Source: a phage. From it: 64,000 nucleotides of DNA. Location: sequence record PZ295659.1; one strand, 5' to 3'. The translations under genes and the position numbers were made by a program. Below are positions 13,377 to 45,668 of this stretch, piece by piece. The notes below the pieces were generated by a model. That model saw only the letters and a program-made list of their open reading frames with translations. It did not search any database and was not told the origin of the DNA. How positions within the stretch are numbered: position 1 is the first letter of the stretch; every line of letters starts with the position of its first letter.

Positions 13377-13517
13377 TCACCATATTAATGAACGAATATC
13401 CATTATAACATCTGAAATGAAAAGCACTACTTGGATTAGTCCAAACATCACACCATAGTACAGAACCGTAAGCAACAACAAGAGCCCGAAGGCTCCTGCT
13501 AAGATTTTCTTAATCAT
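13377..13517 (-). CDS. Possible small hydrophobic protein (46 aa); overlaps a UUCG-type hairpin so may not be coding
   Basis: ATG overlaps the upstream stop as TAATG; MIKKILAGAFGLLLLLTVLYYGVMFGLIQVVLF...; region where T4 has ac/stp. Confidence 0.3.
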   Translation of the reverse strand: MIKKILAGAFGLLLLLTVLYYGVMFGLIQVVLFISDVIMDIRSLIW

Positions 13518-25824: not shown

Positions 25825-27138
25825 TCAAATAAAATGGACGTCAAACCGGCCACGAGTTGTGCCGACATACAATAACTGTTTAGCTAATTCTGAATCGGCA
25901 TAATGGATACACGGTGTATAAACAAAGGCCGTGTCAACAGACATACCCTGGGCCTTATGGAAGGTTGATACTGGTAGTGCCTTCACCTTAGTGAACATAC
26001 GTTTAGCATCCCAGAATTCGCTCCATGGAGCTTTACCACCTTTATTCCAAAATTTGTATGTTTCTGCGGTCTTAGCCAAAAACAAATTGAATTTATAAAG
26101 CTCTTCTTCAGAAGAAATAACCTTTATATCTTCGCGGATGTATTCTTCATCATCCCCATATGTTTCTACTGTAAGATTCCAGTATCGTATCATATATTCG
26201 CCTGAAACACCACGTGCTTTAACGAATGTAGACGTTTCTACAGCATCTCGAATACGAACGAATTGGCCGTTATTGAAAAGCATTTCGGTCATATTTTTAC
26301 CATCTAGCTTATATGTCTTAGTAAACGGCTCTTGTAGAACAATGACTTCGTCTTTAATAAATGGTTTTTCTGTTTCAAGAAGTTTTCGGCGAATAATTGA
26401 ATTTAACTTGTCCACCGACTTATTTGTGAATGCCATCATTCGATTTTCGAAAAGGTCTTCAGGAGTTTTAACGACGTTAAAATAGTTCATCATATACGAT
26501 TTAAGGTCTGTATATCCATGAACACCATGCCCATCAACTACTTTATCGTAAATCCATTTGCCGTTACGAATATCAGTCGCAACATCAATAATTGGTGCAT
26601 TGCTACGTTTAACTTCTGTAAGGTTGCATTGCACGAAGTCTTTGTGAGTGAAGAAAGGACTTAGATACGCAGTTGATTCGCCTGGGTCTACCGGACGAAT
26701 CTGGCATCGGTCGCCGATTCCAATTACTGTACACCATTTAGGGATACTAGCTAACATTATTTTAAACAGAGAACGGTCGCACATTGACGCTTCATCAAAT
26801 AACAGTACACGGCACAAGGCTAAGTCGGGAACCTTTTTCTGTTCAAACAATATGTTTTCTTCGTATGTAGTTGGGTTGATTTTAAGAATGCTATGAATAG
26901 TCGATGCTTCTTGACCCGCAAGTTTGCTTAGAACCTTTTTAGCAGCATGTGTAGGGGCTGCTAAAATAATACCTGATTCTCCAGAAGAAATAAGGGCTTC
27001 AACGATGAATCTAGTAAGGGTTGTTTTACCTGTACCAGCAGGCCCATTAATAGTTACGTGATGTTTCTTTTCTTTAATAGCGTTCATAACAACGTTGAAG
27101 GCGTTTTTCTGGCCTTCAGTCAAATCATCAAATGTCAT
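25825..27138 (-). CDS. dda: DNA helicase Dda (SF1)
   Basis: 437 aa; MTFDDLTEGQKNAFN...INGPAGTGKTT Walker A; matches remembered T4 Dda. Confidence 0.9.
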   Translation of the reverse strand: MTFDDLTEGQKNAFNVVMNAIKEKKHHVTINGPAGTGKTTLTRFIVEALISSGESGIILAAPTHAAKKVLSKLAGQEASTIHSILKINPTTYEENILFEQKKVPDLALCRVLLFDEASMCDRSLFKIMLASIPKWCTVIGIGDRCQIRPVDPGESTAYLSPFFTHKDFVQCNLTEVKRSNAPIIDVATDIRNGKWIYDKVVDGHGVHGYTDLKSYMMNYFNVVKTPEDLFENRMMAFTNKSVDKLNSIIRRKLLETEKPFIKDEVIVLQEPFTKTYKLDGKNMTEMLFNNGQFVRIRDAVETSTFVKARGVSGEYMIRYWNLTVETYGDDEEYIREDIKVISSEEELYKFNLFLAKTAETYKFWNKGGKAPWSEFWDAKRMFTKVKALPVSTFHKAQGMSVDTAFVYTPCIHYADSELAKQLLYVGTTRGRFDVHFI

Positions 27139-29493: not shown

Positions 29494-29950
29494 CGAGATA
29501 AAAACTAGCAGGTTCAGAGAATGTTTCTAGTGCTACACCTTTTGTCTTAAAAAATTTCCAAATAGCTCGTTGCAAATGGGTTAAATCTGCTAATGATGTA
29601 ATAAAGTATTTTTTGGCAAAATACTTATGGTCTCGCTTTTCAAACAAGTCTAAACGCTTTTCAGGATTCACATAAACTGCATTTTCCGTAGATTCATAAC
29701 CTAAGTCCTTTATGCCTTCTTCAAGACTAAACGGAGAATTTTTAGAATGAGTAATAGCTCCAACTCGCTCTACACGAATTTTGTAACCTTTAGGAATCTG
29801 CAATTTACAGAATTCTTCTACGATATATTGCGGATTATTTAGACTTTTGTTAATGAGAATAGCTATTTCTAGTGGAGTCTTATCTTCTACTGGTATATGT
29901 TTAAACGATTTGGCTTCAAGCAAATACATTTTAAATAACATAGCATCCAT
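29486..29950 (-). CDS. Hypothetical protein
   Basis: 154-aa ORF. Confidence 0.5.
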   Translation of the reverse strand: MDAMLFKMYLLEAKSFKHIPVEDKTPLEIAILINKSLNNPQYIVEEFCKLQIPKGYKIRVERVGAITHSKNSPFSLEEGIKDLGYESTENAVYVNPEKRLDLFEKRDHKYFAKKYFITSLADLTHLQRAIWKFFKTKGVALETFSEPASFYLGE

Positions 29951-34514: not shown

Positions 34515-34763
34515 TTATTCTTTTTCGCGAATAATAATTACTTGTTGAGGCTGCTGAGCAGATTTCTTTTCGGCAACGATAGACCAAATTAAAGTTCCAA
34601 TCCAACCAACCATCGTCCAGTTAAAGAGTAAAGATACAAAGAAGATTGCTGTTGTGCTTTTTGTGCCACGAATAAGTGCGATTACCCAAGGCAACATGTA
34701 AATGATGATTGAACCAATACCTGCGATTAAAACCGCTACTGAACTAGCTACGAATAATTCCAT
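34515..34763 (-). CDS. Small inner-membrane protein (two TM segments)
   Basis: 82 aa, hydrophobic throughout. Confidence 0.55.
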   Translation of the reverse strand: MELFVASSVAVLIAGIGSIIIYMLPWVIALIRGTKSTTAIFFVSLLFNWTMVGWIGTLIWSIVAEKKSAQQPQQVIIIREKE

Positions 34764-34824: not shown

Positions 34825-35193
34825 TTAATTAAATTTGTTTAAACGTTCAATACACTGGACGTAGTTATTTGCGATTTGTTTCTGGGTAGGCTCTTTACCA
34901 GTTGTTTCAATATAGCGAATGAATGCGATTTCAGTAGCCTGTAAGCAATGTTCTTTAACGCGCTGTTCTTTTGACATAGCTACGGTATCAGAATCACGAT
35001 AACGTTGAGCATGAGCATCAGCTTGAATCATTCGATTACCTACAGTAACCGGGTCTTCCACTTCAACTTTAGGTTGGTCATACTGTTTAACATTCGGATT
35101 GTAAATCAGTTGGCCAACGTTATTAGGGATAAAGCCGTGGGCACCACATCCGGTTAATCCAAATACCATTGCTAAAGCGATTAATTTTTTCAT
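34825..35193 (-). CDS. Putative lipoprotein
   Basis: 122 aa; signal peptide with lipobox LTGC. Confidence 0.55.
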   Translation of the reverse strand: MKKLIALAMVFGLTGCGAHGFIPNNVGQLIYNPNVKQYDQPKVEVEDPVTVGNRMIQADAHAQRYRDSDTVAMSKEQRVKEHCLQATEIAFIRYIETTGKEPTQKQIANNYVQCIERLNKFN

Positions 35194-41406: not shown

Positions 41407-41568
41407 TCAGCGTAGTATTCTAGTTGAACAGGTTTCTTTAATCACTTTAGCCGCTTTAGTTTCAAACAGGCCCATAAGGGCCTTTTTAAGAATTTGTTCG
41501 TTGCTGTTAATTTTCGTAGTCAAAATCTCTTCATTAAGTTGGTGGTTAAAAGTTTTTCTAGAAATCAT
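41407..41568 (-). CDS. Possible small protein (53 aa) coupled by ATGA to the Cys-rich gene
   Basis: ATG overlaps the upstream TGA; region also contains a GGCCC/GGGCC hairpin, so coding status is uncertain. Confidence 0.3.
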   Translation of the reverse strand: MISRKTFNHQLNEEILTTKINSNEQILKKALMGLFETKAAKVIKETCSTRILR

Positions 41569-42725
41569 TCCGGGTACCTCAAAGCGTCGTCAGAGTTAGT
41601 TATATCAATAATAGATATAGAGTTTTCTGCTAACCCATTTTTAGATAACTGACGTTTATAATATCTTTCACAATATGTACACGTCGTCCCGCAGATTTCA
41701 TTAGCACAATCGAAATCTGGATGTCTGAACCACCTTTTTTCTAAAAAGCCATCTAACAAAGAGGTTTCAATATTTACCGTATGTGAAAACTCGGTCTCAT
41801 TTTCAAGAGTGAAAATAGTCTCTAAAGGCTTCCACAATTCCAACAAATTACCTTCAAATTTTTCAGAAGCATAAGCTTCAAGAACTTTCAAAATGTAGTC
41901 TGTGCTACCTGTACGTCCTGAAACTTTGAATTGAGTGATACCAATATCATTATAAAGTTTCAAATCTTGAGGACGAACAAAACGAGTTCTCAACCAGTTA
42001 AATGGGTCTGTATCACGAGCTTTAATACAGTGTTGCATTGGATAGCCATTTAAGGATTTGGCATCATCTACTGTAACGTCGGTGCTATGGAAAATATAGC
42101 AAGAGTCACGATAGCTACAATGTGTTGTATACCCTTTACCAGCATTAGAACAGAACTCATTTACAAGAACTTCAAATATTATATTGTTCTTATTGCAAAA
42201 CTCTGCTGCACGCTTCAGGAAAGAAACTGAACGGTTCTTATGAATTCCACAGCAGACCTTTTTGATATTATATTGGTCATGCAAGTATTTGATTTGAGTT
42301 ACAGCATCGACATGTAGAATTGTTGAAACTTCAATCTCAATGTCTTTATTAACTTCACGAACAATTTCCATAACAACAGGGTTAGCGATAGTAATACGCC
42401 ATACGCCTATTGACCAAAGATACTGAACATAATCCTGAATAGCTTTCTTCTTCCACTCAACTAGTTCTCTTTTTGAACCAGGATTTATCGTGTTGAGTGT
42501 ATAGTTAAAGCAAATACCTAATTCGTTACAACGTTTAACATAATCTTCTAACATCTTTTTGTCAACGTCAGGAAGCCTAAAATCAGGTCTGGCTGCTACA
42601 AAAGCCATTTCTCTTGTAGAGCCGTATACTTCATTTATCAAGCTATTAGGATAAGTTTTATTGAGCTCTACGATTTTATCAAGAAGAGCTAAATCAAAAT
42701 TCGTTCCGATTTTAAAAGTATTCAT
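41565..42725 (-). CDS. Cys-rich protein of unknown function, possible metal or Fe-S binding, in the sugar-nucleotide module
   Basis: 386 aa; C-terminal CANEICGTTCTYC (C-x4-C-x3-C-x2-C) plus further Cys pairs; weak resemblance to U32-type Cys-rich segments not confirmed. Confidence 0.5.
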   Translation of the reverse strand: MNTFKIGTNFDLALLDKIVELNKTYPNSLINEVYGSTREMAFVAARPDFRLPDVDKKMLEDYVKRCNELGICFNYTLNTINPGSKRELVEWKKKAIQDYVQYLWSIGVWRITIANPVVMEIVREVNKDIEIEVSTILHVDAVTQIKYLHDQYNIKKVCCGIHKNRSVSFLKRAAEFCNKNNIIFEVLVNEFCSNAGKGYTTHCSYRDSCYIFHSTDVTVDDAKSLNGYPMQHCIKARDTDPFNWLRTRFVRPQDLKLYNDIGITQFKVSGRTGSTDYILKVLEAYASEKFEGNLLELWKPLETIFTLENETEFSHTVNIETSLLDGFLEKRWFRHPDFDCANEICGTTCTYCERYYKRQLSKNGLAENSISIIDITNSDDALRYPE

Positions 42726-42779: not shown

Positions 42780-43181
42780 TTATAGATTCGGTTTATATGA
42801 TTTAAATGTTTCGAATTCGCCTTTATTCATAAGAGCTTTGAATTCGTCAGGACGCATAGCTTTGTCGTCGATAATCCAATCATATACTGGTTTATGTGTT
42901 AGCAAATTATGGTACTTCAAGCCAATGTTTGCCAAGTTCTGAATCAGACTTGGGAGAATGTCAATTGCTATACGACCAGGACCTACTGACTTCATACCGC
43001 GAGCAGTGTAAAGCGTTATTGTATGCCCTGCATCATACAGGGCATTAATGGCAGACACCATTTCGACGTCTGGTTTGAAGTTCACGTAATCACGATTGTT
43101 ATTCCACTCGGTTATACAATCATCGACATCAAAACAAAGATTAAGCATGTTTTCTACACGGTGCATTAGATTCGTTCCCAT
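42780..43181 (-). CDS. HAD-superfamily phosphatase (small, capless)
   Basis: 133 aa; motif I-like FDVDDCIT, then LYTAR and KP...WIIDDKA; an alternative ATG at 43166 overlaps the upstream stop as TAATG. Confidence 0.55.
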   Translation of the reverse strand: MGTNLMHRVENMLNLCFDVDDCITEWNNNRDYVNFKPDVEMVSAINALYDAGHTITLYTARGMKSVGPGRIAIDILPSLIQNLANIGLKYHNLLTHKPVYDWIIDDKAMRPDEFKALMNKGEFETFKSYKPNL

Positions 43182-44851
43182 TGATGAGTGATATCGCCAC
43201 CGATTGGACGATAGGAAACACCAGTTTCTTTATCAGTTAGTACCCATTTACCAGGATTTTTTGTAATCAGAGTAGCCGTTACAGGTTCTGCTACGTCATA
43301 ACTAATAGAGCCGTCTTGAAGTACACGGCCCATGTTACGTAATTGCTTAGTCAGAAGTTCCATACCTTTATAATATGCGGCTACCGCTTTAAGTGGATTA
43401 TTCTTGAAATAACCACCTAATGCAATCCAGATAATTGCTACAGCCAAATGATGATACTCGTTAAACGAACTCATCTTTCCATATTTGTAAACTAATGGAT
43501 TGATGTTAATAGTCACATTACAAGTTGTTTCATCAATAGTAAACTGACCCCAGGTCGGATTAGCGTTGAATTCATCATAACCTGAAACAGCGTAAAGCAC
43601 TTTAGCTTCATCATACAATTTTGGCCCGTAAATCTTGGTTTCACCAAAATATCCACGAGGGTCGATAAACTTGACTTCACCATTATCAGTAATCATAGTA
43701 TTACTGAAGTTCGGGTCACCATGAATAACAGAGTACTGTCCCTGAGAACGGTTATGATAACGAATAAGGTGTTCTAAAGCTTGTTTCAACATTGGCTTCA
43801 GACGTCCAATCTTAGTGTAGTTCACATGTGTGATTTTACCAAATGAATCAATCAATGGTTGAATACTTTCACAACGATCAATAACTTTCGTATAGAATTC
43901 TTTAGTGAAATCACGACGAACAGTTTCAGGACTTACAAAATAAGTGTCTGTGCTGAATTTCAGTGCATCTAAAATTGCATCAACAATTTGTGGACGAGCA
44001 AGACTCGATTTGGATTTAATATATTCAAATGCCGGCTTACCTTTAATGCGTTCCATTTCAAAGTTATTTTCATTAACAGAAACTAACTGAGGAACTGAAT
44101 CTGATTTCACTTTAAGATACCATGAAATCTCATCTTTCTGAAGAGCTCGACCCTGTTCGGTTAATGCGAATTTAGTTACAGTTTCTTCACCAATTTCAAC
44201 TGCATTAAAACTACGATTAAGTTCACGAACTTCATGAGCTTTTTCAAGTTTAGGCATATCACCTAAATCAATTAGATTCATAAGCTCTGATTTATTGAAT
44301 GCGCTGCCGTAAAGGAATTCTACGAAATCACGCCCTTTGCAGTATTCATGAATTTCCTCATCAGTAGAACCCATATAGAATTCCCAGTCTTTGAACTGAT
44401 AAATTCCTACAACATTACCACCTGTTGAACCTACGTTAGTGATATTTTCACCGTCGAAATTATATCGACATTCGTCACCCTTAACATAGATTGCGTTAAC
44501 ATTCCAAGACCATGAACCAAAATCAGGAATAATATCGCACCAGTTAACAATTACATTATGGCTGTCTAAATCTTTGTGTAATTTAGCAAGAGCATAAGCA
44601 GAACCATACGCTTCATCAACTGTACGAATAGTCACATTGAACCCTTCTTGCTCACAATAAGCTCGAACAGTTTCAGCAAATTTTGAATGAACTACTACAA
44701 TAATTTCATCTGCGCCAAGGTCAGAATAAATTGTATACAAATTGCTCAGAATAGTGTCTTGTTTATAGTTAACAAGCACCTTAGGAATATGATGCGTTAT
44801 TGGATACAAACGAGTTGCCAGTCCAGCACCAAGAATAACAGCTTTTTTCAT
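43166..44851 (-). CDS. Bifunctional sugar-1-phosphate nucleotidyltransferase / APH-fold sugar kinase fusion
   Basis: 561 aa; N-terminal AVILGAGLATRLYP (RmlA-type G-x-G-T-R-L), C-terminal VIHGDPNFSNTMI...FIDPRG (Brenner and D-x-x-G motifs of choline/aminoglycoside kinase fold). Confidence 0.65.
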   Translation of the reverse strand: MKKAVILGAGLATRLYPITHHIPKVLVNYKQDTILSNLYTIYSDLGADEIIVVVHSKFAETVRAYCEQEGFNVTIRTVDEAYGSAYALAKLHKDLDSHNVIVNWCDIIPDFGSWSWNVNAIYVKGDECRYNFDGENITNVGSTGGNVVGIYQFKDWEFYMGSTDEEIHEYCKGRDFVEFLYGSAFNKSELMNLIDLGDMPKLEKAHEVRELNRSFNAVEIGEETVTKFALTEQGRALQKDEISWYLKVKSDSVPQLVSVNENNFEMERIKGKPAFEYIKSKSSLARPQIVDAILDALKFSTDTYFVSPETVRRDFTKEFYTKVIDRCESIQPLIDSFGKITHVNYTKIGRLKPMLKQALEHLIRYHNRSQGQYSVIHGDPNFSNTMITDNGEVKFIDPRGYFGETKIYGPKLYDEAKVLYAVSGYDEFNANPTWGQFTIDETTCNVTININPLVYKYGKMSSFNEYHHLAVAIIWIALGGYFKNNPLKAVAAYYKGMELLTKQLRNMGRVLQDGSISYDVAEPVTATLITKNPGKWVLTDKETGVSYRPIGGDITHQWERI

Positions 44852-44892
44852 GTTGTGGTCCTCATTGGTAAGTAGGAGTATTGTACACTATT

Positions 44893-45036
44893 CTAGTTAA
44901 AGCATTCATACTTTGCTTGTAGTCCAATCATAATCCATCCGATTACAAGTGTTGGAATCATTACTGGAGCCGTTAAGCTCCAGTAGATAGTCATGACAAG
45001 CATCAATAGTAAAAGTCCTATTGTTATTGCTTTCAT
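44893..45036 (-). CDS. Small hydrophobic peptide (47 aa) coupled by ATGA to the isomerase gene
   Basis: MKAITIGLLLLMLVMTIYWSLTAPVMIPTLVIGWIMIGL...; ATG overlaps the TGA of the SIS gene. Confidence 0.4.
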   Translation of the reverse strand: MKAITIGLLLLMLVMTIYWSLTAPVMIPTLVIGWIMIGLQAKYECFN

Positions 45037-45668
45037 TGTTCGCCTCGTAACATGGCACCTAGTGCACCGCCAGGGTGGAACTTAAGGAAGTCATTAGAGG
45101 TAAATCCACGTTCAGACGAAAGGTTGATAGCAAACGTATCGATAAGCGCTAACAACAATGTAGTGGACATGGTCGGAGCCAGAGAATTCTCATCAACCTC
45201 TACTGCGATGCCTGTACAGAACGTATAATCAAAAAGAGCTTCATATTCTTGTGGAATGTCTGGGTTACAATGCAACAGAATCTGTTTGACGTTCGGACGA
45301 ATCATTTTAAGATGCTTAGCCACGCCTATCATTTCTTCAGTTTTACCAGAACGACTAATATGAATCAACACATCATTAGGCGCAATGAATCCTGCATCAC
45401 CGTGAGAATAATGCCCGGTGTTCAAGTACATACTAGGGATACCGAGTGAAGCAAATGTTTCAGAAGCTTTAGTTGCAATATTAGCATTCTTACCAACACC
45501 TGTAATAATTACTCGGCTTTCATAATTACTAAGCCCTGGGCGTCGAAGAGTTTCTAGAATAGCATTATAACGAGCAGGGTTTTGACTAATTACTTTGGCC
45601 ATAGCGGCCAAAGAAGAAGCTTGTTTTATGATTGCGTCAATAGCGATAGTAATAGGAGTAGTTTTCAT
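45033..45668 (-). CDS. SIS-domain sugar-phosphate isomerase, KdsD/GutQ-like (arabinose-5-phosphate isomerase type) without CBS domains
   Basis: 211 aa; ITGVGKNANIATKASETFASLGIPSMYLNTGHYSHGDAGFIAPNDVLIHISRSGKT parallels the KdsD SIS core GMGKSGHIG...HGDLG...ISNSGES. Confidence 0.7.
   Translation of the reverse strand: MKTTPITIAIDAIIKQASSLAAMAKVISQNPARYNAILETLRRPGLSNYESRVIITGVGKNANIATKASETFASLGIPSMYLNTGHYSHGDAGFIAPNDVLIHISRSGKTEEMIGVAKHLKMIRPNVKQILLHCNPDIPQEYEALFDYTFCTGIAVEVDENSLAPTMSTTLLLALIDTFAINLSSERGFTSNDFLKFHPGGALGAMLRGEQ

What the first reader, a model, noticed from the sequence alone, without database searches (positions are those of the whole stretch)
44893..45036. Unannotated 47-aa hydrophobic peptide ATGA-coupled to the isomerase gene
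A minus-strand ORF begins with an ATG overlapping the TGA of the SIS isomerase and encodes a TM-like peptide. It lies roughly where T4 has the imm membrane proteins but is far shorter. It is below the 60-aa cutoff of the six-frame track.
Basis: seen in the sequence. Interest (0 to 1): 0.4.

Follow-up and report, generated by a model that had tools for sequence, protein, structure and literature searches.

The report
Known small T4-family membrane gene (Y02C)
The 47-codon hydrophobic reading frame is a real, conserved phage gene, but it is already catalogued: it matches an uncharacterised small T4 protein (Y02C/"gp42.1") and was annotated in RB69 in 2003, and its function is still unknown.

Summary
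The ORF at 44893..45036 (-) exists as described: 47 aa, hydrophobic, its ATG overlapping the TGA of the SIS/arabinose-5-phosphate isomerase. Alone this is not beyond chance: 19 of 389 small ORFs in the window are as hydrophobic, and about 10% of gene junctions are ATGA.

Comparative data show a real gene. It is intact in all 26 loci examined, with no stops only in this frame. Synonymous sites are saturated while pN stays at 0.23-0.36, and within-lineage dN/dS is about 0.05-0.25.

It is not unannotated. It matches phrog_3610 end to end, and near-identical homologues carry Pfam PF26865 "Phage_T4_Y02C". RB69 calls a truncated form ORF054c.

It does not replace imm. In T4-like phages the homologue follows imm with the same ATGA overlap, and this window has its own imm.1-imm about 10 kb away. 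It is not tied to arabinosylation, since glucosyl-hmC phages carry it.

The start/stop overlap holds in 26/26 loci with either upstream partner. [quoted passage not shown]

Likely role: a small inner-membrane protein made early or middle in infection. Its target is unknown. Ordinary; low interest.

The parts
44893..45036 (-). Small protein gene, 47 aa, of the T4 Y02C / 'gp42.1' / RB69ORF054c family (phrog_3610; near-identical homologues carry Pfam PF26865)
   Evidence: ORF confirmed. phrog_3610 matched full length, E=6.8e-27. T4 homologue: tblastn E=1.3e-15. Purifying selection and a frame-specific open reading frame across 21 loci. The exact sequence occurs on 137 contigs.
45033..45036 (-). 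ATGA start/stop overlap with the upstream isomerase gene (likely translational coupling)
   Evidence: A start/stop overlap is present in 26/26 homologous loci: 24 with 4 nt and 2 with 1 nt. It holds with either imm or the SIS isomerase upstream.
45043..45046 (-). Shine-Dalgarno-like GAGG, 6 nt upstream of the ATG, inside the end of the isomerase gene
   Evidence: Read from the sequence. SD-like purine runs are also seen in T4 (GAGAGAAGGA), VR7 (AAGGAA) and the Kanagawavirus-like loci (GGTGA).
45033..45668 (-). Upstream partner gene: SIS-domain arabinose-5-phosphate isomerase (RB69 gp55 homologue)
   Evidence: Pfam SIS E=1.7e-10. phrog_5670 E=2e-116. Role in the arabinosyl modification pathway proposed in PMC6024577 and PMC13326640.
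44880..44907 (-). Middle-promoter-like element: MotA box gaaTGCTTTA, made of codons E44-C45-F46-N47, then a 12-nt spacer and a TACAAT -10. It would serve the downstream NTP-transferase/kinase gene.
   Evidence: Pattern hit (30 hits in the window against 11.7 +/- 3.2 expected). Same register in 13 of 14 loci with the SIS->ORF->NTP-transferase context. Consensus taken from PMC2988021. Predicted in RB69 as Pm:29842 in Nolan et al. 2006, Additional File 4.
43166..44851 (-). Downstream gene: 561-aa NTP-transferase / kinase fusion (RB69 ORF53_52c homologue), 41 nt after the small ORF
   Evidence: Pfam NTP_transferase E=7e-10 plus weak kinase-family hits. phrog_4098. Shown to be a single gene in RB69 in PMC6024577.

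Best explanation
The ORF is the RB69-group (Mosigvirus-like) orthologue of T4 Y02C. UniRef calls the T4 protein 'Uncharacterized 5.6 kDa protein in Gp42-imm intergenic region'; some annotations call it gp42.1; in RB69 it is ORF054c. It is a lineage-restricted accessory gene of T-even phages of Enterobacterales and lies in the variable interval between DNA polymerase gene 43 and gene 42.

Shown:
- It is protein-coding and under purifying selection.
- Its start codon always overlaps the stop of whichever gene lies upstream (imm in T4-, VR7- and L022-type genomes; the SIS isomerase in RB69-, Kanagawa-, Winkler- and Tegunavirus-type genomes), and an SD-like element sits in front of it.

Inferred:
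- It is co-transcribed and translationally coupled with the upstream pre-replicative gene.
- The variable but always strongly hydrophobic N-terminal segment (about residues 3-21, with a basic N-terminus) anchors it in the inner membrane.
- The highly conserved C-terminal half (T-x-P-x-M-I-P-T...G/A-W...L-Q-x-K-Y/F-x-C-F/I-N/W) is the working surface that contacts a conserved membrane partner.

Best guess, weak: it modulates an envelope or inner-membrane process early in infection, possibly alongside Imm, its neighbour in many lineages.

For: Identity:
- phrog_3610 matched 1-47/47, E=6.8e-27. T4, VR7 and phiR1-RT homologues hit the same PHROG.
- tblastn against T4 gives E=1.3e-15.
- PF26865 Phage_T4_Y02C is precomputed on homologues.
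- UniRef name and cluster membership come; the RB69ORF054c note.

Coding:
- No stops in frame in 21/21 loci; each of the other five frames has stops in at least 16 of the 21.
- Entropy by codon position 1/2/3 is 34.9/17.8/52.3.
- 41% of differing codons are synonymous, against 12% and 7% in the shifted frames.
- Between lineages pS is 0.63-1.0 and pN 0.23-0.36; within lineages omega is about 0.05-0.25.

Coupling: overlap in 26/26 loci with two different upstream genes.

Membrane character:
- GRAVY 1.36.
- AlphaFold2 models one helix over residues 2-46, pLDDT 91.
- The N-terminal segment has a negative apparent insertion free energy in nearly all homologues, while the second 15-residue segment is marginal (scale values recalled from memory).

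Promoter overlay.
Against: - There is no direct evidence of translation or membrane localisation. No Ribo-seq, proteomic or genetic data were found.
- The function is unknown, and no profile or structure match is informative.
- The link to Imm is weak. In this phage imm is about 10 kb away. S16 and a Klebsiella phage have imm abutting gene 42 with no small ORF between them.
- ATGA overlaps are common in these genomes (about 10-18% of junctions). The two contexts represent only two or three independent junction events.
- No conserved RNA structure enforces coupling.
- Topology is unresolved: single span or hairpin.
Confidence: 0.85

Rival explanations
1. The small protein is an accessory of Imm-mediated superinfection exclusion. 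It would be a membrane partner made stoichiometrically with Imm through translational coupling, and it would keep that function in this phage even though imm has moved.
For: In 12 of 26 loci (T4-like, VR7-like, L022, PsgM02F) the ORF follows imm directly with an ATGA overlap. L022 keeps imm->ORF even though the arabinose genes lie downstream, which suggests this is the older arrangement. Both are small hydrophobic membrane proteins of pre-replicative operons.
Against: In this window and 13 other loci it is coupled to a cytoplasmic sugar isomerase, and in the window imm lies about 10 kb away. Imm is far more widespread (1041 records, including 138 Klebsiella phages). In S16 and Lion_ER11 imm occurs with no small ORF at that position. 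No experimental link was found.
Confidence: 0.2
2. The small protein is a component of the arabinosyl-DNA modification pathway, for example a membrane tether or assembly factor for the isomerase and the NTP-transferase/kinase that flank it.
For: It lies between the two pathway genes, with a conserved overlap, in loci from at least four named genera (Mosig-, Kanagawa-, Winkler- and Tegunavirus), although synonymous sites are saturated.
Against: Homologues occur in glucosyl-hmC phages that lack these genes (T4, RB32), where they sit between imm and gene 42. The published pathway uses RB69 gp51, gp52-53 and gp55 and never mentions gp54. Stenotrophomonas phage DLP3 has the three enzymes as consecutively numbered genes, gp81-83. 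In L022 the ORF is separated from the SIS gene by another gene.
Confidence: 0.05
3. The stretch is not a gene. It is conserved as a regulatory spacer (a middle promoter or mRNA signals), and the open frame is incidental.
For: A MotA-box/-10 element overlaps the 3' end here, and another lies inside the 5' part of the T4 ORF. Hydrophobic small ORFs are common by chance in this AT-rich genome.
Against: The substitution pattern is frame-specific, and only this frame is free of stops in all homologues. The invariant residues are spread over the whole C-terminal half, not only the promoter. The Cys is conserved with codon TGT in most lineages that lack the MotA box. The promoter position differs between lineages while the protein is conserved.
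Confidence: 0.03
4. It is a membrane-damaging peptide (holin-like or type-I-toxin-like) or a host-takeover factor that inhibits a host inner-membrane protein, unrelated to Imm.
For: Its size, hydrophobicity and helical prediction resemble those classes. The variable anchor plus a conserved C-terminal motif suggests a specific conserved target. The family is confined to phages of Enterobacterales.
Against: It has no similarity to any holin, toxin or defence/anti-defence profile. It lies in a pre-replicative operon, which would be an odd place for a lysis function. There are no toxicity data.
Confidence: 0.25

Closest known systems
T4 Y02C ('Uncharacterized 5.6 kDa protein in Gp42-imm intergenic region'; gp42.1 in RB32 and VR7; Pfam PF26865; phrog_3610)
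   Same: Homologous over the full length: 52% identity to T4, with the same motif P-x-M-I-P-T...G-W...L-Q-x-K-Y-E-C-x-N. The length is similar (47 vs 49 aa). It occupies the same genomic interval between genes 43 and 42 and has the same ATGA overlap with the preceding gene.
   Different: The upstream partner is the SIS isomerase rather than imm, and the downstream gene is the NTP-transferase/kinase rather than gene 42. The MotA-box-like element is at the 3' end of the ORF here and near the 5' end in T4.
RB69 ORF054c (NP_861744)
   Same: The 47-aa frame in RB69 is 100% identical in protein, and the context is identical.
   Different: RB69's record starts the gene at an internal Met (36 aa), which loses the ATGA overlap. 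The long form is supported because lineages without that internal Met keep the first ATG, and no alternative start lies upstream of it in frame.
T4 Imm (PF14373, superinfection immunity membrane protein)
   Same: A small hydrophobic inner-membrane protein of the same pre-replicative region. It is the immediate upstream neighbour of the homologue in T4-like phages.
   Different: There is no sequence similarity. Imm is about 83 aa. The window encodes a true Imm elsewhere, at 34515..34763, 64% identical to T4 Imm.
MotA-dependent middle promoters of T4/RB69 (applies only to the overlapping DNA element)
   Same: gaaTGCTTTA + 12 nt + TACAAT fits the published consensus (a/t)3TGCTTtA-N12(+/-1)-TAtaaT. 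The element corresponds to the predicted RB69 promoter Pm:29842.
   Different: It lies inside coding sequence, so the Cys-Phe-Asn codons carry both constraints. No transcript start has been mapped.

Membership tests
Phage_T4_Y02C (Pfam PF26865) / phrog_3610 | Full-length significant match to the family profile | tested here: met
   phrog_3610 matched 1-47 of 47, E=6.8e-27. T4, VR7 and phiR1-RT homologues hit the same PHROG.
Phage_T4_Y02C (Pfam PF26865) / phrog_3610 | Direct hit to the Pfam model PF26865 | not testable with these tools
   The local Pfam copy lacks the model. The tag is precomputed on 94-96% identical proteins P0001-P0003 and on distant members P0004 and P0008. The exact window sequence is in the same 90% cluster as P0002.
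Phage_T4_Y02C (Pfam PF26865) / phrog_3610 | Homology to the founding T4 protein | tested here: met
   tblastn of the T4 49-aa protein against the window: E=1.3e-15, 52% identity over 46 aa, at exactly 45033..44896.
Phage_T4_Y02C (Pfam PF26865) / phrog_3610 | Conserved motif and architecture: hydrophobic N-terminal segment, P-x-M-[IV]-P-T, W, Q-x-[KR]-[YF]-x-C-[FI]-[NW] at the C-terminus | tested here: met
   Alignments A1 and A2 and the 21-locus list.
Phage_T4_Y02C (Pfam PF26865) / phrog_3610 | Synteny: in the gene 43 - gene 42 interval, with the start overlapping the upstream stop | tested here: met
   26/26 loci.
Imm superinfection immunity protein (PF14373) | Sequence similarity to Imm and a length of about 83 aa | tested here: not met
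   No Pfam hit for the ORF. T4 Imm maps to 34518..34763, not to this ORF. The ORF is 47 aa.
Arabinosyl-DNA modification gene set (RB69 gp51, gp52-53, gp55 and transferases) | Occurs only with, and always with, the arabinose pathway genes | tested here: not met
   Present in T4 and RB32, which lack these genes. The DLP3 pathway genes are numbered consecutively, gp81-83 (PMC13326640). Neither pathway paper mentions gp54.
MotA-dependent middle promoter (overlapping DNA element only) | MotA box (a/t)3TGCTTtA placed 12 +/- 1 bp upstream of a TAtaaT -10 | tested here: met
   gaaTGCTTTA-N12-TACAAT at 44907..44880, against the consensus in PMC2988021.
MotA-dependent middle promoter (overlapping DNA element only) | MotA/AsiA-dependent transcript start in vivo | not testable with these tools
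   Only a computational prediction exists (RB69 Pm:29842). RB69 has a motA orthologue according to PMC1524935. I did not search the window for motA.
Holins / type I toxins / anti-defence proteins | Profile match to a described family | tested here: not met
   No hits in Pfam, NCBIfam or PADLOC, nor among PDB sequences.

The most novel reading that the evidence does not exclude
Y02C is a functional membrane microprotein. Its conserved C-terminal half (P-x-MIPT...W...Q-x-KYEC-F-N) would bind a conserved inner-membrane target in Enterobacterales, or Imm itself, making it an overlooked component of T-even superinfection exclusion or host envelope takeover. Its synthesis would be deliberately tied by stop/start overlap to whichever early gene precedes it. 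In RB69-like phages the same codons would also be selected as a MotA box, a true dual-coding segment.
Probability: 0.2. Interest if true: 0.45.

Novelty: already known. Interest (0 to 1): 0.15.

Why it matters
It matters little as a discovery. The gene family is already in Pfam, PHROGs, UniProt and many GenBank records, all without a function.

It has some modest practical value:
- T4 RefSeq NC_000866.4 has no CDS for this conserved gene, and RB69's record truncates it. Omics studies mapped to those annotations would therefore miss it.
- It is a clean, short test case for translational coupling that persists when the upstream partner is swapped.
- It is also a test case for coding sequence overlaid by a MotA-type promoter.
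- It adds one more conserved membrane microprotein to the list of T-even early genes that still need a phenotype.

Tried and rejected
- Pfam, NCBIfam and PADLOC scans of the window and T4 proteins gave nothing meaningful.
- A profile search against PDB sequences gave only a chance hit at E=3.3.
- The word-indexed protein search returned only 3 near-identical clusters. The exhaustive HMMER search of 1.84 billion representatives gave 6 hits. Three are genuine proteins of 46-47 aa. P0005 is a repetitive 481-aa protein and spurious on inspection. P0006 and P0007 are long proteins that I did not inspect and are probably spurious.
- Literature searches for gp42.1, Y02C and T4 ribosome profiling or small proteins found no functional data.
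- The T4 genome review and the paper at my recalled ID for the Lu & Henning imm study are not held.
- A hairpin that sequesters the start site and enforces coupling: rejected. Junction folds have z-scores of +1.05, +1.10, 0.01 and -0.13; only VR7 reaches -1.86.
- Frameshift or read-through fusion of the isomerase to the peptide: rejected. There is no slippery site, and in four Kanagawavirus-like loci a stop lies 3 nt upstream in the ORF's frame.
- The alternative 50-aa GTG ORF at 44906..45058 on the same strand: not conserved; that frame has stops in most homologues.
- The generic sigma-70 and terminator scan found nothing above shuffle expectation.
- I did not run a fold search on the AlphaFold model, because a single helix would give meaningless matches.

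Full report
**1. Observation**

The minus strand of the window carries an ATG-initiated 47-codon ORF at 44893..45036. It encodes MKAITIGLLLLMLVMTIYWSLTAPVMIPTLVIGWIMIGLQAKYECFN. Its ATG overlaps the TGA of the upstream 211-aa gene at 45033..45668, giving ...GAGGcgaacaATGAaa.

The upstream gene has a SIS domain (Pfam E=1.7e-10) and matches the phage arabinose-5-phosphate isomerase family phrog_5670 (E=2e-116). The adjacent 903-aa ORF matches records annotated as DNA polymerase gp43. The stretch around the ORF is 90-99% identical to 154 Escherichia and Shigella T-even phage records, so the window comes from an RB69-like phage.

The description is therefore correct, but alone it is weak evidence. 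The window contains 389 ORFs of 30-70 aa, 19 of them with GRAVY >= 1.2, and this one ranks 15th. About 10% of same-strand junctions in a crude gene set are ATGA overlaps (8 of 82). In the RB69 annotation I count 5-6 of 34.

**2. Is it a gene?**

Yes. I read the homologous ORF in 26 loci: the window, L001-L020 and L021-L025. They include Tequatrovirus, Mosigvirus, Gaprivervirus, Kanagawavirus, Winklervirus and Tegunavirus records, plus unclassified and metagenomic contigs.

- All 26 are intact, at 46-50 aa.
- Across the first 21 loci the real frame has no stops in any homologue. Each of the other five frames is interrupted in at least 16 of the 21.
- Column entropy by codon position 1/2/3 is 34.9/17.8/52.3.
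- 41% of differing codons between lineage representatives are synonymous, against 12% and 7% in the shifted frames.
- By the Nei-Gojobori method, synonymous sites are saturated between lineages (pS 0.63-1.0) while pN is only 0.23-0.36. Within lineages omega is about 0.05-0.25, for example L015/L014 with 9 synonymous and 3 non-synonymous changes, and L010/L011 with 8 and 2. Values are higher but noisy among T4-like sequences, which differ at few sites.
- The first ATG is the true start. No other start codon lies upstream in frame, and the Kanagawavirus-like lineages have no internal Met before residue 26.

152 phage records carry the protein at >= 95% identity.

**3. Is it unannotated? No.**

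- The ORF matches phrog_3610 end to end (E=6.8e-27).
- Proteins 94-96% identical to it carry the precomputed Pfam tag PF26865. The contig lookups name that family Phage_T4_Y02C. The local Pfam copy lacks the model.
- The exact window protein occurs on 137 contigs and has many GenBank accessions as 'hypothetical protein'. An example is KMC05_gp065 in phage F2.
That call starts at an internal Met and gives 36 aa. The identical 47-aa frame with the ATGA overlap is present in RB69.
- UniRef calls the T4 homologue 'Uncharacterized 5.6 kDa protein in Gp42-imm intergenic region'.
- T4 RefSeq NC_000866.4 shows no CDS between genes 42 and imm. The intact 49-aa ORF is there, at L005 5228..5377 (-), which is T4 26227..26376, and it starts with an ATGA overlap on the imm stop codon.

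**4. Relation to imm**

In RB32 the order is 43 - imm.1 - imm - 42.1 - 42. In VR7 it is 43 - imm - 42.1. In both, the 42.1 start overlaps the imm stop by 4 nt.

The window has its own imm.1 and imm at 34825..35193 and 34515..34763 (-), about 10 kb from the small ORF. Its Imm is 64% identical to T4 Imm. So the small ORF is not a shortened Imm. It is the orthologue of the gene that follows imm in T4-type genomes.

The metagenomic locus L022 has 43 - imm - ORF - 165 aa - SIS - 86 aa - NTP-transferase. There the imm-linked arrangement coexists with the arabinose genes.

Imm is more widespread than the small protein: 1041 records, including 138 Klebsiella phages. In Salmonella phage S16 and Klebsiella phage Lion_ER11, imm abuts gene 42 with no small ORF between them. 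The small gene is therefore a lineage-restricted accessory gene, and Imm can occur without it at that position.

The exhaustive HMMER search confirms a very narrow family. Among 1.84 billion representatives there are 3 genuine hits.

**5. Relation to arabinosylation**

The ORF sits between two genes proposed to make NDP-arabinose: RB69 gp55 and gp52-53. The third proposed enzyme, gp51, follows them. Both papers on the pathway skip gp54 (PMC6024577 and PMC13326640). Phage DLP3 has the three enzymes as consecutively numbered genes, gp81-83. Homologues occur in glucosyl-hmC phages. I conclude that it is not a pathway component.

**6. Coupling**

The start overlaps the upstream stop in 26/26 loci: 24 ATGA, one TAATG and one TGATG. 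The upstream gene is imm in 12 loci and the SIS isomerase in 14. The overlap persists even though the C-termini of the isomerases diverge and synonymous sites are saturated.

An SD-like purine run precedes each start. Junction RNA folds are not significant, with z-scores of +1.05, +1.10, 0.01 and -0.13. Only VR7 shows a hairpin, at z = -1.86. So coupling is plausible, by termination-reinitiation plus an SD of its own, but dependence on upstream translation is not demonstrated. Because the overlap is inherited within each context, it represents only two or three independent events.

**7. The protein**

- GRAVY is 1.36.
- AlphaFold2, with a 6-sequence alignment, models one continuous helix over residues 2-46 (mean pLDDT 91.2, pTM 0.46).
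- I applied the Hessa biological hydrophobicity scale, with values recalled from memory, so the result is approximate. The N-terminal segment (about residues 3-21) has a negative insertion free energy in nearly all homologues. The second 15-residue segment, between the prolines and Q40, is marginal at about 0 and too short for a full span.
- The N-terminus is basic (K2).
- The N-terminal segment varies in sequence. The C-terminal half holds most of the conserved positions: P24, M26, P28, T29, G/A33, W34, L39, Q40, K/R42, Y/F43, C45, N/W47.

My reading is a variable membrane anchor plus a conserved interaction surface. The topology remains unresolved: a single span with N inside and C outside, or a short hairpin. 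No solved-structure, defence or other family resemblance was found.

**8. An overlaid promoter**

The last codons plus the 41-nt spacer read gaa-TGC-TTT-AAc-tag-aatagtg-TACAAT. This fits the MotA-dependent middle-promoter consensus (a/t)3TGCTTtA-N12(+/-1)-TAtaaT from PMC2988021.

- The relaxed pattern is enriched in the window, with 30 hits against 11.7 +/- 3.2 expected, and 20 of the 30 are on the gene strand.
- It lies in the same register in 13 of the 14 loci with the SIS-ORF-NTP-transferase context. L021 is the exception.
- The lineages without it at that site (the eight T4-like loci, the three VR7-like loci, L021 and L022) spell the Cys as TGT in 10 of 11. L016 has TGC followed by ATC, and L020 has Tyr. 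The Cys is therefore conserved at protein level, and the promoter is a lineage-specific overlay.
- The eight T4-like loci instead have TGCTTTTAATCTTGATGATTATAAT (one with a single-base variant) near the 5' end of the ORF, presumably serving gene 42.
- Nolan et al. 2006 already predicted the RB69 element as Pm:29842 (29802..29842, minus strand). RB69 has a motA orthologue.

**9. Verdict**

The feature is a real, conserved gene for a small membrane-type protein with a conserved stop/start overlap. It is already catalogued and annotated in relatives, it is not a substitute for imm, and it is not specific to the arabinosylation cluster. Its molecular function is unknown.

The mechanism I commit to is a small inner-membrane protein made early or middle in infection and translationally coupled to the preceding gene. 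Its conserved C-terminal half would engage a membrane partner. An Imm-related role (about 0.2) and an unrelated host-membrane target (about 0.25) are the leading guesses, and both are untested. Novelty: already known. Interest: low.

Noticed in passing
L005 5228..5377 (-) = T4 NC_000866.4 26227..26376: T4 RefSeq shows no CDS between imm and gene 42, yet an intact 49-aa homologue (MKSKIIAALLLILMIIISIYYSVTVPLMIPTIILGWSLLLLQVKYECIN) lies there with an ATGA overlap on the imm stop. UniRef lists it as an uncharacterised 5.6 kDa protein. Analyses mapped to the RefSeq annotation would miss it.
   Followed up: yes
L006 9824..9967 (-) = RB69 NC_004928 29823..29966: RB69ORF054c is annotated from an internal Met (36 aa). 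The conserved 47-aa form starts 33 nt upstream at the ATGA overlap. Yersinia phage phiR1-RT and Enterobacter phage ZX14 leave their homologues unannotated.
   Followed up: yes
window 34515..34763 (-) and 34825..35193 (-): imm and imm.1 homologues lie downstream of gene 41 rather than between genes 43 and 42 as in T4. In this lineage the imm.1-imm pair and the small ORF have been separated by rearrangement.
   Followed up: partly
window 44880..44907 (-): A MotA-box/-10 middle-promoter-like element is built from the last codons (E-C-F-N) of the small ORF plus the spacer. It is conserved in register in 13 of 14 loci with the same context and corresponds to the predicted RB69 promoter Pm:29842. 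This is a case of coding sequence doubling as a promoter.
   Followed up: yes
whole window: The relaxed middle-promoter pattern TGCTT-N13-15-TANNNT occurs 30 times against 11.7 +/- 3.2 expected, and 20 of the 30 hits are on the minus (gene) strand. This is consistent with a MotA-type middle transcription programme in this phage.
   Followed up: partly
window 13377..13517 (-): A second small hydrophobic ORF lies on the gene strand (46 aa, MIKKILAGAFGLLLLLTVLYYGVMFGLIQVVLFISDVIMDIRSLIW). It matches phrog_3595 full length (E=6e-24, unknown function), and a MotA-like pattern hit lies inside it at 13426..13402.
   Followed up: partly
window 41407..41568 (-): A 53-aa ORF starts 4 nt before the end of the U32-peptidase-like gene (41565..42725), another ATGA-type junction. 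It matches phrog_8601 (E=3e-27, unknown function) and lies at the position of RB69ORF049c.
   Followed up: partly
window 43166..44851 (-): The NTP-transferase/kinase is a single 561-aa ORF here. RB69's record splits it into ORF053c and ORF052c, which PMC6024577 showed to be a one-base sequencing error.
   Followed up: yes
L004, L010-L015, L023, L024: spacer just after the small ORF: Kanagawa-, Winkler- and Tegunavirus-like loci share a near-palindrome, GGTACAATGGA(T/C)GTACC, that spans the -10-like TACAAT in the spacer before the NTP-transferase gene. The window's spacer lacks the palindrome. Its significance is unknown.
   Followed up: no
L003 3478..3514 (VR7): Only in VR7-like phages does the imm/ORF junction fold into a hairpin that covers the SD and start codon (-11.7 kcal/mol, z = -1.86). 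This could make coupling obligatory in that lineage.
   Followed up: no
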